From contig OZ024748.1 in NCBI GenBank assembly GCA_964016885.1, positions 25,854,001 to 25,918,000 on the forward strand: a DNA stretch of 64,000 bases, in the 5' to 3' direction. The notes under the pieces are model-generated. The model ran no database searches. It was given only the letters and a program-made list of their open reading frames with translations, and had not been told where the DNA came from. Every line of letters begins with the position of its first letter. Positions within the stretch are counted from its first letter, which is position 1. Origin of the DNA: Eledone cirrhosa (taxonomy: Eukaryota). Below are positions 25,299 to 35,030 of the stretch, one piece after another. The position numbers and the translations under genes were made by a program.

Positions 25299-26131
25299 AC
25301 AGGGCCATTTGCCTGAGGGAATCTGTGCCCTGTTATCCTTTCTACATACTTGGACTTTGGTCTTTGCCAGTCTGACTTGAAGACCTTTAGATTCTAGGCT
25401 TTGCTTCCTGGTTTGGAATTTCTTCTTTAGATCTGCTATAGATTCAGTCGTAAGGGTTAGATCATCAGCATACAGAAGCTCCCATGGACAGCCAGTCTTA
25501 AACTCTTCTCTAATAGCCTAAACAGAAGAGAGCTGAAAACGGAGCCTCGATGTACTCCTACCTACATGCTAAATTCTTCACTATAGTCATTGTTAATTCT
25601 AACCTTGTTGACTGTTCCACTATACATGGCTTTTACAGCCTTCACAAGCCACTCATCTACTCCTAGCTTTTTAAGAGCCCACCAAATAATGGAACAGGGG
25701 ACTCTGTCAACAGCTTTCTCCAGGTCCACAAATGCCAAGTATAGGGGTTTACTTTTTACTTCTGCTGTTGTTTCACAAGGAAGAGAGCATCAGAGGTACT
25801 TTTACCTGGCACAAATACAAATTGCATCTCATTTAGGTTAACTTGGTCTCTGATCAGCTGTGAAATAACTCTTTCTATCACCTTCATGATCTGGTCAACC
25901 AACTTAATGCCGCTATAGTTTTCTCTGTCTAGGGCATCTCTTTTGTCCTTGTAGCAGTGACAATGATGATGCTACGCCAGTCATTGGGTATGACCCCATT
26001 TTGTATTACTTAGTATTATATATATAGAACCTATGTTTAGAAAACAGGTTTTTTTTAAACATAAGCAGTCTGTTCACTAGTTCTGTATTTTCAGCTTGTA
26101 ATCTTTCCAAGCTTCCTCAAGGAAAATGCAT

Positions 26132-26189
26132 CTCCCTGAGGAATGTTGGAGAGATTACAAATTGAAACTTGCAAAGTTTGTGGTCGGAG
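26132..26189 (+). ncRNA. Degenerate type I hammerhead-like motif
   Basis: CUCC-CUGAGGA-[weak stem II]-GAAA-C..GCAA/UUGUGG-UC-GGAG; stem II has two mismatches. Confidence 0.55.
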
Positions 26190-27189
26190 TTTTACTTCAT
26201 TAATACACCCATTCTGTATCTCATCATGTAATCAGTCTACTCTGATTTGTGCTCTTCCCACTGCAGATACTCCACACAGAGATAGATAGATAAGACAGAG
26301 AGAGACAGCGAGAGAAAATACTTTTGGGCCATTATCTACAGTAGCATATGTAACTACTTCATAACTAATCTTGGATATAAAAGAAGTACAAACATTATAT
26401 ATATATATATATATATATATATATATATATATATATATATATATATATATATATATATATATAATATATACATTTTTCAAAAGTAAATGCAAAAGGTCAT
26501 AGATAGTGAGACAAACTTAAGAGAAAGATAAAATTTACAAACTTATATCCAGATGTTATATTTCTTGAACTATCAGACAGTTTCAGGGAGTAGAATGATG
26601 TACAACAATAAACTCCCAAGACAACATGATGTGTTCCTTGTATAGCTAAAATACGTTTGGGATGTGAAAGATATTAAGTCACAACTTCACTCCCTCCTTT
26701 AGTAATAATAAATAGCTAAATTTGGTTTTACATCAGTGCAAGCAGGATATATATATGTGTGTGTGTGTGTGTACATATGTATATGTATGCATAACCCATG
26801 CTAGTGTGGAAAATGGACATTAAATGATGATGATGTATATGTCACATATCAAGCAATGCCTGTGCTTGAAGCTTTTTTTAAGTGAGGAAAGGCTTTGCAT
26901 GGGGCCACTCCAACTCTCTGAACAGTGAATGTATTTACTCCAAAAAGTCTACATCATTGGATGCAAACGAAGTCACAGGTTTTATATCAGAGTGACCTTC
27001 TAGAGAGATGTCTAAATGAACACTAGGCTGTTGACTCGCCTGAATTCATTCGCCTCTTGACTGGTTTTGGTTTCCATCCTGCTGTGTGTGTGTGTATAAA
27101 TGTATATATACATATATATACATACACACATATATATATATATATATATATATATATATATATATATATACATAGATACATCTATCTAT

Positions 27190-27716
27190 CTATCTTTCTA
27201 GGGCAGGTAAAATTCCTAAGATCCATGGATGAGTTCTCTCCAGCAGTCTCTGTCCCTCATCATCACCTCCATGTCCTGCGTCTCCCAGAGACCAGTGTCT
27301 GTCCTTAGGGCATCAATATGTCATCCTCAGTCTCCCTCTTCTAGTGTGTCCATGTAGGGGCTCCCACAGGACCACTGAGTGCAGTGTCAACTCTGAATGT
27401 CAGTGAGCATGTCCAGCTAACCGCAGTCTCCTCTGTGTTACTTTGAAGCTGACTTTTGGGAGGCTCCCTTACAGCTCTGAGTTCTTCATCCTCAGTGTAT
27501 ACTGATTAATGTTCAGAGCCATCCTCAGCATTCTTGTGTAACACCCATCCACCAGCTGAGTGAGTCTCTTAGTGACTTGGACATTGGTCCAAGTCTCAGA
27601 CCCGTACAGACTCCACTGTAGCGATGAAGAGACGGATCTTCAGGTTTTTACAAAGGTTCGACATCCACACCGACCTCAAACTGTGACATGCCACCCAGGC
27701 TTTGCTCTTCCTCTCC
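27190..27716 (-). mobile_element. RTE/RTE-X-like LINE 3' fragment (second family)
   Basis: Minus strand: DGCYTRMLRMALNI...LPKVSFKVTQRRLRLAGH...LWEPLHGH. Confidence 0.7.
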
Positions 27717-31738: not shown

Positions 31739-33341
31739 TCATCATCATCATCATCATCACCGTTTTACGTCCGTTCTTCCACGCTAGCATGGGTTAGACG
31801 GGTTGTCCTGTTGTGGGCAGTGTCTGGTCGGCTGACCATGCCTTGCTCATACAGGAACTGATCTGGCTTGATTTCTACAGCTGGATGCCCTTCCTAACAC
31901 CAACCTCATTTACAGTGAGTGCTGGGTGCTTTTTCGTGGCGCCTACACGTCCACTTTACAGTGTGGGCTGGGTGCTTTTTTGCCGTGGCACCTCCACGAC
32001 CACCTTGCGGTGGGGGGGGGGGCATATTGTTTATATGCTTCAGCATGTACCCATGGGAGGTCGGGTACCCTGTATTACTGCGTGACGCCAGAAGTCACGG
32101 TCGTGTGTCATTGACTTTGAGAGGTGTAGTTGGGTAAGGTCGGCTTTTATCACCTCATCCCAAGTCATCTTGGGTCTCCCCACTCCGCGGTTTCCATCAA
32201 CTTCTAGTGCTCTGCACCTTTTTATGCAGCTGTCATCCTTCATACGCATCACATGTCCATACCAGCGTAACCGCCTCTCCTGCACGCAGCATTTGATTCC
32301 TCTTATGCTCAGTCTCTCTCTCAATTCATTTATGCTTTGTCGTTCACGTATATTACTGTTACACATCCATCGGAGCATGCAGGCTTCGTTTCTCTCTAAT
32401 CTACGTAAGTCTTCCACCTTCAGCGCCCAGGTCTCACTACCATGCAACATCGCTGTTCGGATACACGCATCATACAGTCTGCCTTTCATTCTGAGGGAGA
32501 AGCCTTTTGCAGCTAGCAGTGGTAGTAGTTCCCTAAACTTCTTCCATCCCGTTCTTACCCTAGTTATTGTACTTTCTGAGCACCCACCTCCGTTGCTAAT
32601 TCGGTCACCTAGGTAGCAGAAGCTGTCTACTGTTTCTACAGGGCCCTCCCAGAGATTGGTGGTACTTGTTTCCTGTGGCTGTTTGCTTGCTGTTTCAGCA
32701 CAGCTGCTGCATGTGAATCCTACATTCTTAATTAAGCTTCCTGAGATCCCGCTACATCTCTTGTGTACCCATTGTTTGCATTTGGGGCAAAGAATGGAGT
32801 TCCTACCTACACCTTTCCTACATACTGAGCAAGGCCATTTCCCTGAGGGGATCTGGGTTCTGTTTTCTCGTCTACTTATAAGGACCTTAGTCTTTGTCAT
32901 GTTGACTTTGAGGCCCTTTCTCTCTAGTCCCTGCTTCCAGGTTTGGAATTTATTCTCTAGTTCTACCATAGATTCAGCTATGAGTGCGAGGTCATCAGCA
33001 TACAGGAGTTCCCATGGGCATCCGGTCTTAAACTCCTCCGTTATTGCCTGCAGGACTATGATGAACAGGAGAGGGCTAAGAACAGAGCCCTGGTGGACCC
33101 CAACCTGTACGCTAAATTCCTCGCTATACTCATTGCCAATCCTAACTTTGCTGACTGCTCCCCTATACATGGCTTGTACCGCTTTCACAAGCCATTCATC
33201 TACTCCTAGTTTTCTAAGAGCCCACCAGATTACTGCACGTGGAACTCTGTCAAAGGCTTTCTCAAGGTCGACAAATGCCAAGTAGAGTGGCTTACTTTTA
33301 GCTAGGTACTTTTCCTGTAATTGCCTCACAAGGAAGAGCGC
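31739..33341 (-). mobile_element. 5'-truncated RTE-clade LINE with uninterrupted 433-codon RT/C-terminal frame
   Basis: [11 protein letters not shown]...YADD...KWPCSVC...RLRWYGHVMR...GRPKMTW with no stops to 32040; 3' UTR and (GAT)n at 31739. Confidence 0.95.
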
Positions 33342-33487
33342 ATATATATATATATACACATATATATATATATATATATATATACAAATATATATATATA
33401 TATATACACATATATATATATATATATACACATACATATACATATATATATATATACATACATACATATACATATATATATACACAT

Positions 33488-35030
33488 AGCTCTATACGAA
33501 ATCAAGGAATACGTAACCGGGGGACTAAAACACAAGCACACACACACAGTACTACCAGACATACTAATAATAGAAGATCACCACCAAATAAATCACGTTG
33601 TAGAAAGTATATCTGGTACAATCCTATTTTTAATGCCTCGATTAGTACAAAACTATCTCTTTCATTCTTTAAATTAATCAACAAATATTTCCCTAGTTCC
33701 CATAAATACAGCAAAATTCTGAACTCTAAAACTATTAGACTATCATACTCCACGGCACCAAACCTTGAAGCATACATAAAAAAACTTAACTTAAGGCAAT
33801 TAAACAACTCTACAAAACAAAACATTTTAGTAACAGATGGGCAGAACGCAATATCTGCCTCCCAACAACTAAATGGGAGACGGGTATTACACAACCCACC
33901 TGTACCGCTATCACAACCTATCCATGGTGTACCCACTACCCACAACAAAGAATATAACTGCCATCTACCTGAAAGATGTCCATTGAAGAATGAATGCCTA
34001 AAGTCCAACACTGTTTACCAATGCACAGTTGAATTGAACGACCAGAAATGGTATTATATCGGATCTACCACCACATCGTTTAAATCTCGCTGGTACCGTC
34101 ATCGATTCTCAATCAAGCATCCAAATCACTGTTTTGTGACCACGCTCGCCAACAAGACCTGGCAACTCCGTGAACACAACCAACAGTTCACCTTAAAATG
34201 GGATATACTTTCTAGCGCAAGTGCATATCGGAGTGGATTGAAGTACTGCAGGTTATGTAACCTTGAGCTATTTTACATATTAAAATGCAAAAACAAACTA
34301 CTTAACGATAGAATTGAACGATCATTATACTGCAACCACAAACTAAAAGCTAAATTCTCTCACTATAAAATAACTTAACATTCGAACCCGTAACTATAAC
34401 ACCACTTTCTAGCTAACAACCTTTTCTTCCCCCCACACTACAAGACAATACACTGCTTATCACTATACATGGTAACTCAGTGCAATTCCTAGATTACTAC
34501 TACAAACCCAAAGTTCACTCACCACACATACTTTGTCTCTCCCTTCTCTACCTATCTCTCTCTACATCCATTACACTCTCTCTCTCTCACCTTTGACCTA
34601 CCTCCCTCTCAACATCTATGAACCTGCCCTCTGGGGCAATAAATAATTCCGACCTTAACTATCAACGCATCTCTCCAAAAGTAACCAGTATAATAAAACC
34701 CCTACCATAACATTTTGATTAAGATATCTACAAGCCACTCTCTCCTACTTCTCCAACCCCTGCATATCTTTCTTTCTCTCTCCCTCTTCCCTACCTTTCT
34801 CTCTTCCTGTTCTACTCTATCTTCCCCAACAACCCCACTTAAGGGTATTTACATTGTACATTTACCATTCTGCTCTGAGGAAACAGTGGTCACAGCATTG
34901 GATATTCGAGTTCTGCAAGTACTTGTGAATTTGCACGTAGCGTAACTAGGCTGCAGTACCACCGTGGAAACACTTGTAAGCACACGGAATAAATTACCTT
35001 TTATGATGTCTACCTGTTATTATTCATTCT
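33488..35030 (+). mobile_element. 5'-truncated Penelope-like retroelement (thumb + linker + GIY-YIG + pLTR region)
   Basis: Stop-free frame ~33488-34378: IWYNPIF...[23 protein letters not shown]...CPLKNEC..TVYQC...YIGST..FKSR...CRLC; hammerhead and AATAAA downstream. Confidence 0.9.
34871..34982 (+). ncRNA. Type I hammerhead-like motif with an extended stem II
   Basis: UGCU-CUGAGGA-[ACAGUGGU..CAGC / GCUG..ACCACCGU]-GAAA-C(ACUU)G-UA-AGCA. Confidence 0.65.

What the first reader, a model, noticed from the sequence alone, without database searches (positions are those of the whole stretch)
26089..34993. Three sense-strand hammerhead folds within 9 kb of SH3BP5 intron 2
Seen: CUGANGA...GAAA...UH cores with closing stem I at 26132-26189, 31087-31149 and 34871-34982, all on the host transcribed strand. 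Two are followed directly by AATAAA (31141, 34988). Known: Penelope-like elements carry type I hammerheads in their pLTRs, and intronic self-cleaving ribozymes occur in animal genes. Inference: the 30-kb intron could be cut co-transcriptionally, coupling ribozyme cleavage or premature polyadenylation to exon 2-3 splicing of a Rab11 GEF.
Basis: partly seen in the sequence, partly recalled or inferred. Interest (0 to 1): 0.72.

Follow-up and report, generated by a model that had tools for sequence, protein, structure and literature searches.

The report
Penelope transposon hammerheads in octopus intron
The three self-cutting-RNA motifs are real, but two are the tail ends of common jumping genes and the third is a decayed repeat copy; such motifs occur about once every 17 kb in this genome, and these are predicted to stay mostly uncut, so a regulatory role for the host gene is unlikely.

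Summary
The motifs, coordinates, AATAAA signals and the 30.1-kb SH3BP5 intron are as described, and they exceed shuffled sequence (4 in the window against 0.23). They are not a host-specific cluster. Sites 2 and 3 are 3' ends of two young, multi-copy Penelope-like retrotransposons of the Hydra clade, each still attached to its endonuclease remnant. Site 1 is an old repeat copy with a broken stem II and an inverted twin predicted to sequester it. The same descriptor finds 68 motifs in 1.18 Mb sampled elsewhere (about 58 per Mb); inside other genes 16 are sense and 17 antisense; 3 of 120 ten-kb stretches hold three on one strand. AATAAA after the cut site is a family trait (23 of 68, background 3%). 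Sites 2 and 3 have minimal helix III, the type reported to need a same-family partner; none lies in the window and the three cannot cross-pair. The best-folding hammerhead of the window lies on the opposite strand, outside the intron. Cleavage itself could not be tested: no RNA reads. The scan reached the same reading before on other DNA. Verdict: ordinary transposon passengers.

The parts
21507..21569 (+). SH3BP5 exon 2 (second coding exon located)
   Evidence: AG/GT borders and frame continuous with the exons at 15522 and 51716
21570..51715 (+). SH3BP5 intron, 30,146 nt, as inferred from the exons located
   Evidence: Pfam PF05276 on the next exon, E 1.1e-13; no RNA evidence
26089..26131 (-). 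Inverted partial twin of site 1 (5' half of the motif, stem II intact)
   Evidence: 81% over 43 nt to site 1; predicted long hairpin with site 1
26132..26189 (+). Site 1: decayed type I hammerhead of an old repeat family; 2 of 6 stem II pairs broken; repeat continues to about 26265
   Evidence: 40 other matches at 68-86%; family alignment; fold penalty +12.5 kcal/mol alone, +36 with the twin
27994..28716 (+). 5' part of the site 2 element: end of a GIY-YIG endonuclease frame and start of the 3' UTR
   Evidence: 94% to the protein of copy L176 over 34 aa; contiguous with 30581-31192 in L039 and L040
28717..30580 (+). Non-LTR retrotransposon (RTE-like; label recalled) inserted into the site 2 element
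   Evidence: RVT_1 E 5.4e-33; splits two halves that are adjacent in other copies
30581..31192 (+). 3' end (pLTR part) of the site 2 element
   Evidence: 39 other near-full matches at 95-99% end at about 31192
31087..31149 (+). Site 2: type I hammerhead, stem I 8 bp, stem II 3+8 bp, minimal self-complementary helix III; predicted cut after 31141; AATAAA at 31141 and 31146
33482..35032 (+). 5'-truncated Hydra-clade Penelope-like element between TA-type microsatellites; endonuclease frame ends at 34378
   Evidence: 94% to the 782-aa frame of L180 over 300 aa; copies at 97-99%
34871..34982 (+). Site 3: type I hammerhead, stem I 4 bp, stem II opened by A-G with a 67-nt branched insert, minimal helix III; predicted cut after 34978; AATAAA at 34988
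13876..13956 (-).

Best explanation
Sites 2 and 3 are the 3'-end hammerhead motifs of two multi-copy Penelope-like retrotransposon families and site 1 is a decayed copy of an older repeat; all three likely landed in the intron by chance and are predicted to stay mostly uncut in the SH3BP5 pre-mRNA. In the intact element the motif sits in the repeat on both sides of the reading frame (shown for the site 3 family), where two same-family copies in one transcript would pair through helix III and cut the element's own RNA (inferred from published work on such motifs). The AATAAA behind the cut site is likely the element's own 3'-end signal. A 5'-truncated solo insertion keeps the motif but loses the partner.
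For: Site 3: 39 other full-length matches at 98-100% among the 40 candidates scored of 2128; it lies 500 nt behind a GIY-YIG frame; copy L180 has the motif (one full, one 5'-clipped copy) on both sides of a 782-aa RT-endonuclease frame with the Hydra motifs RWK, DKT, CxCX5C, CxxC, CxH and no Cys pair inside GIY-YIG (criteria in PMC8557442 section 11). Site 2: 39 other matches at 95-99% among 40 scored of 3593; joined to an endonuclease remnant once the inserted element is removed. Structure is kept in the family: in 19 BLAST-gathered site 2 relatives 91.7% of 399 cells pair, 4 of 21 pairs change on both sides, slid controls 41-51%; the core varies at position 7. Density: 35 hits in 599.8 kb of evenly spaced stretches, 33 in 578.5 kb inside kinesin and kinase genes, 16 sense and 17 antisense, p = 1.0; three on one strand in 3 of 120 stretches (L187, L202, L317). 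AATAAA within 31 nt of the cut in 23 of 68 against 3.1% background. Predicted cost of the active monomer fold: site 1 +12.5 (+36 in context), site 2 +4.4 to +5.1, site 3 +7.5 to +10.8 kcal/mol, against +2.7 for the antisense fourth motif. Same-family helix III duplex -3.2 (site 2) and -1.1 (site 3) against +4.7 and +2.4 as monomer hairpins. No second same-strand family copy in the window; cross-family stem I at most 2 bp. PMC4209133 (parts 1-2 of 4 read): a single minimal motif showed no cleavage, dimers low cleavage.
Against: No cleavage or RNA-end data for or against (offered no raw RNA run). Three sense motifs in 30.1 kb have a Poisson probability of 0.06 at the mean density: somewhat high, not rare. 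Folding energies ignore tertiary contacts, proteins and co-transcriptional folding. The strand test is small (33 hits; 11 from one gene; about seven are inverted pairs that balance by construction; all genes on the - strand; one 140-kb gene gave no hit). Covariation for site 3 is thin: 1 of 26 pairs changes on both sides. Site 1 could not be tied to a Penelope protein (no hit beside it in 59 loci except one unrelated place).
Confidence: 0.86

Rival explanations
1. Passengers with a side effect: site 2 (intact, perfect helix III palindrome) is cut at a low rate by pairing in trans with same-family RNA, or its AATAAA is sometimes used, trimming SH3BP5 output without being selected for.
For: Site 2 has 8-bp stem I and a self-complementary helix III; thousands of candidate family copies; AATAAA pair at 31141/31146.
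Against: No depletion of sense copies in other genes (16 against 17); in vitro rates are low even for dimers (PMC6765202 passage); splicing can proceed across a cut intron (PMC5126111 passage citing Dye 2006); 35 AATAAA in this intron.
Confidence: 0.1
2. One reading: a domesticated set of intronic ribozymes that times exon 2-3 splicing, like the CPEB3 or RECK intronic ribozymes.
For: All three intronic motifs are sense; precedent in PMC10919898 (abstract) and PMC6155905 (passage). Site 1 keeps its core where 26 of 36 aligned family rows that cover it do not.
Against: Sites 2 and 3 are 95-100% like dispersed copies, so young and unmodified; site 1 has lost 2 of 6 stem II pairs and is predicted to be sequestered; three unrelated families that cannot cross-pair; average density.
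Confidence: 0.03
3. The motifs are chance matches in AT-rich DNA.
For: No Rfam hammerhead match; free-energy folds of sites 1 and 3 are no better than shuffles (z -0.62 and +0.26).
Against: 4 against 0.23; family alignments with invariant core and paired stems; position at element 3' ends.
Confidence: 0.01

Closest known systems
Hydra clade of C-terminal EN+ Penelope-like elements, incl. Hydra-1_Obim of Octopus bimaculoides (Craig et al. 2021, PMC8557442; section 11, passages and supplement rows seen)
   Same: RT-endonuclease frame with RWK, DKT, CxCX5C, no CCHH; (TA)n targets; hammerhead near the 3' end; inverted 5'-truncated twins
   Different: Different families: the hammerhead listed for Hydra-1_Obim in File S2 has other stems (compared by eye); site 3 carries a 67-nt branched insert in stem II and an A-G first pair
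[quoted passage not shown]
   Same: Type I, long stem II, tiny palindromic helix III, mostly solo copies from truncated elements
   Different: No G10.1-C11.1 pair in sites 2 and 3 (A-U; A-G); density here about 58 per Mb against 2,000-9,000 motifs per genome reported there with another descriptor
Domesticated intronic ribozymes: RECK/CTCL/DTNB hammerheads of amniotes (PMC6155905, passage) and the CPEB3 HDV-like ribozyme (PMC10919898, abstract)
   Same: Sense-strand motif in a long intron
   Different: Those are conserved at one locus across species; these are young or decayed members of dispersed repeat families, predicted poor monomers
Non-LTR retrozymes (bioRxiv 10.64898/2026.07.22.740005; part 1 of 5 and passages read)
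   Same: Type I hammerheads of PLE origin, many copies in introns (42-44% in Xenopus)
   Different: Sites 2 and 3 belong to protein-coding elements, not tandem non-coding units; site 1 and the 13949 family are unassigned and could be of this kind

Membership tests
Hydra-clade PLE (site 3 family) | Single frame, RT then C-terminal GIY-YIG endonuclease | tested here: met
   782-aa frame in L180 with YRDD at 355 and VY..YIG at 662; Atlas neighbours at 0.97-0.99 carry PF26215 or GIY-YIG in a minority of members; Pfam itself gave no RT or GIY-YIG match
Hydra-clade PLE (site 3 family) | RWK and DKT motifs | tested here: met
   RWK at 46, DKT at 124; a DKG triplet also occurs at 53, outside the aligned motif
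Hydra-clade PLE (site 3 family) | CxCX5C linker, no CCHH, CxxC and CxH near the end | tested here: met
   All in L180; the window's copy lacks the first Cys of the linker
Hydra-clade PLE (site 3 family) | Insertion into (TA)n; pLTR-ORF-pLTR and inverted twins | tested here: met
   TA-type flanks at 33481 and 35033; L180 tandem, L172/L173/L175/L179 inverted pairs
Hydra-clade PLE (site 2 family) | Same protein motifs | tested here: inconclusive
   Copy L176: 42% to L180 over 412 aa, CxCX5C read by eye; N-terminal RWK/DKT region not fetched
Hydra-clade PLE | Placement in an RT tree with published families | not tested
   Only a by-eye comparison with the supplement alignment
PLE (site 1 family) | Link to an RT-endonuclease frame | tested here: inconclusive
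   No PLE protein beside the motif in 59 loci; inverted twins ending short of the direct copy are PLE-like (by eye)
Type I hammerhead | CUGANGA, GAAA, UH, closing stem I | tested here: met
   All three sites
Type I hammerhead | Stem II paired next to the core (site 2) | tested here: met
   3+8 bp, two-sided changes in 4 of 11 pairs
Type I hammerhead | Stem II paired next to the core (site 3) | tested here: inconclusive
   First pair A-G in the window and 29 of 29 close copies, U-G in 12 of 21 rows incl. older subfamilies
Type I hammerhead | Stem II paired next to the core (site 1) | tested here: not met
   Second and third pairs broken against the family and against its own inverted twin
Type I hammerhead | Match to an Rfam hammerhead model | tested here: not met
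   0 of 81 matches at E up to 5
Type I hammerhead | Self-cleavage | not testable with these tools
   No raw RNA run offered
Domesticated intronic ribozyme (RECK, CPEB3 kind) | Locus-specific sequence, not a young dispersed repeat | tested here: not met
   Sites 2 and 3 are 95-100% like dispersed copies
Domesticated intronic ribozyme (RECK, CPEB3 kind) | Conserved in orthologous introns | tested here: inconclusive
   No contig of a related organism bridged the sites

The most novel reading that the evidence does not exclude
With on the order of 170,000 such motifs (extrapolated) and no sense depletion in genes, most long octopus pre-mRNAs carry solo, dimer-dependent hammerheads. Whenever a Penelope family is expressed, its RNA could pair in trans through the palindromic helix III and cut the introns that hold a same-family end, such as site 2 in SH3BP5: a transposon-triggered, family-addressed cleavage of host pre-mRNAs.
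Probability: 0.05. Interest if true: 0.75.

Novelty: new member of a known kind. Interest (0 to 1): 0.17.

Why it matters
As it stands, little: it shows that sense-strand hammerheads in octopus introns are background, about one per 35 kb per strand, and must not be read as regulation without a control. Two side results may interest specialists: the very high motif density, and the frequent non-canonical first pair of stem II (U-U in 19 of 68 sampled motifs, A-G in the whole young site 3 subfamily), which standard models miss. If trans-pairing did cut host introns, it would be a new route from transposon expression to gene output.

Tried and rejected
Rfam scan: no hammerhead. Pfam and solved structures did not recognise the element's protein. 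The runs labelled with the window's species read T at 31099 in nearly all reads; these are other family copies, not this locus. No raw RNA run was offered, so cut sites and poly(A) sites were not tested. Hetero-dimers between the three sites: rejected, stem I 0-2 bp. A young parent for site 1: three searches found only 68-91% matches. The strand test covers 60 stretches, all in - strand genes; the planned + strand genes were not obtained. Lunse et al. (dimer cleavage) could not be read; it is known here only as reference 134 of PMC6765202. Print searches: 'SH3BP5' + 'ribozyme' 0 papers; 'octopus' + 'hammerhead ribozyme' 5 papers, of which only Craig et al. bears on this by the listing. Supplements of PMC4209133 and of the bioRxiv preprint were not seen and may list octopus motifs. 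Permuted hammerheads noted elsewhere in this genome by the scan were not searched for in this intron. That SH3BP5 is a Rab11 exchange factor, and the species group, are recalled or inferred, not tested.
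Full report
Observation. AATAAA stands at 31141, 31146 and 34988. The bare core heptamer is not enriched (29 against 35.6), but core, GAAA, UH and a closing stem of 4 or more pairs occur 4 times against 0.23 in 150 shuffles. Rfam reports no hammerhead among 81 matches.

Site 3. It lies about 500 nt behind a GIY-YIG frame, in a 5'-truncated element (33482-35032) between TA-type microsatellites. Of 2128 candidates 40 were scored and 39 others match over the full query at 98-100%. Copy L180 has the motif on both sides of a 782-aa RT-endonuclease frame, and several loci show inverted twins. 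The protein has RWK, DKT, CxCX5C, CxxC and CxH and only one Cys inside GIY-YIG, the features that define the Hydra clade in PMC8557442 (section 11); that paper's supplement lists an octopus member, Hydra-1_Obim, with a different hammerhead. Stem II opens with A-G in the window and in 29 of 29 close copies, with U-G in older subfamilies. The 67-nt insert holds two hairpins; 97.1% of 546 cells pair, but only 1 of 26 pairs changes on both sides, so covariation support is weak.

Site 2. Of 3593 candidates 40 were scored; 39 others match at 95-99% and end near 31192. In the window the element runs 27994-28716 and 30581-31192, split by another retrotransposon; the halves are adjacent in L039 and L040, and the first half encodes the end of the endonuclease. 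In 19 relatives gathered by BLAST, 91.7% of 399 cells pair, 4 of 21 pairs change on both sides, and slid controls give 41-51% (related sequences can beat shuffles without structure, so I weigh the slid control and the invariant core more). Helix III is a perfect 8-nt palindrome.

Site 1. It belongs to an old repeat (68-91% matches). The family has a 6-bp stem II; the window's sense copy has the second and third pairs broken, while its inverted twin at 26089-26131 keeps them. Of 44 aligned rows 36 cover the core and 10 keep it. No Penelope protein was found beside this family, so its origin is only likely PLE-related.

Is the cluster special? In 60 evenly spaced 10-kb stretches the same descriptor finds 35 motifs in 599.8 kb, about 2 expected by chance. 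In 60 stretches between exons of kinesin and kinase genes it finds 33 in 578.5 kb, 16 sense and 17 antisense. The window's 4 per 64 kb equals the mean of 3.7. Three on one strand occur in 3 of these 120 stretches. At the mean density, three sense motifs in 30.1 kb have probability 0.06. Extrapolated, the genome holds on the order of 170,000 such motifs, damaged ones included. AATAAA follows the cut site within 31 nt in 23 of 68 motifs against 3.1% of random positions: it is part of the element end, and the intron has 35 such hexamers. The strand test is small and partly balanced by inverted pairs.

How it likely works. Shown: position at element ends, tandem arrangement in an intact copy, conserved core and stems. 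Inferred: 57 of 68 sampled motifs have 8 nt or fewer in helix III and 36 of these are self-complementary. PMC4209133 reports no cleavage for a single minimal motif and low cleavage for dimers; the review PMC6765202 says the same. Predicted here: helix III costs +4.7 and +2.4 kcal/mol as a monomer hairpin and gains -3.2 and -1.1 as a same-family duplex for sites 2 and 3; the active monomer fold costs +4.4 to +10.8 for these and +12.5 to +36 for site 1, against +2.7 for the antisense motif. The window has no second same-strand copy of any of the families, and stems I of different families pair by 0-2 bp. So the ribozymes would serve the element's own tandem RNA and are predicted to be largely idle in the SH3BP5 intron. 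Even a cut intron need not block splicing (passage in PMC5126111).

Limits. No raw RNA run was available; contigs of related organisms did not bridge the sites. Cleavage, poly(A) use and orthologous presence are untested.

Known and new. These are new families of a described kind: hammerheads in pLTRs of Hydra-clade Penelope-like elements. Earlier unchecked notes of this scan reached the same reading at other loci of this and other genomes; I had made the Hydra assignment from the paper before seeing them, and took from them only the lead to Hydra-1_Obim. The regulatory reading is unlikely (3%); an unselected low-level effect is possible (10%). Interest 0.17.

Noticed in passing
window 13876-13956 (-), repeat 13631-14147: The best-formed hammerhead of the window (stem I 7 bp, helix III 5 bp), 93-95% like at least 39 other copies, many with inverted twins; antisense, about 1.5 kb before the first coding exon located. 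No protein found for the family.
   Followed up: partly
window 18516-18587: Near-perfect palindrome in the first intron; each arm reads like the 3' half (GAAA, helix III, UH) of a hammerhead family seen in the random sample, without the CUGANGA core (by eye).
   Followed up: no
loci L181-L240, L271-L330: First stem II pair among 68 motifs: G-C 19, U-U 19, A-U 11, others 19; several families have 70-100-nt branched stem II.
   Followed up: partly
window 36089-36328 (-): Antisense fragment of another Hydra-like endonuclease (49% to site 3's); its 3' UTR has no hammerhead core on that strand.
   Followed up: partly
window 11133-11438 (-): Decayed GIY-YIG-like frame unrelated by BLAST to the Hydra proteins.
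   Followed up: no
window 28717-30580: Retrotransposon nested in the AT-rich 3' UTR of the site 2 element.
   Followed up: yes
window about 1370-8060: Long tandem array with a 75-bp unit, open in several frames.
   Followed up: no
window 39501-39629: Long inverted repeat with A-run/T-run centre; sub-threshold miRNA matches only.
   Followed up: no
window 40488-40545 (-): Partial tRNA match at 29.8 bits, likely the head of a SINE.
   Followed up: no
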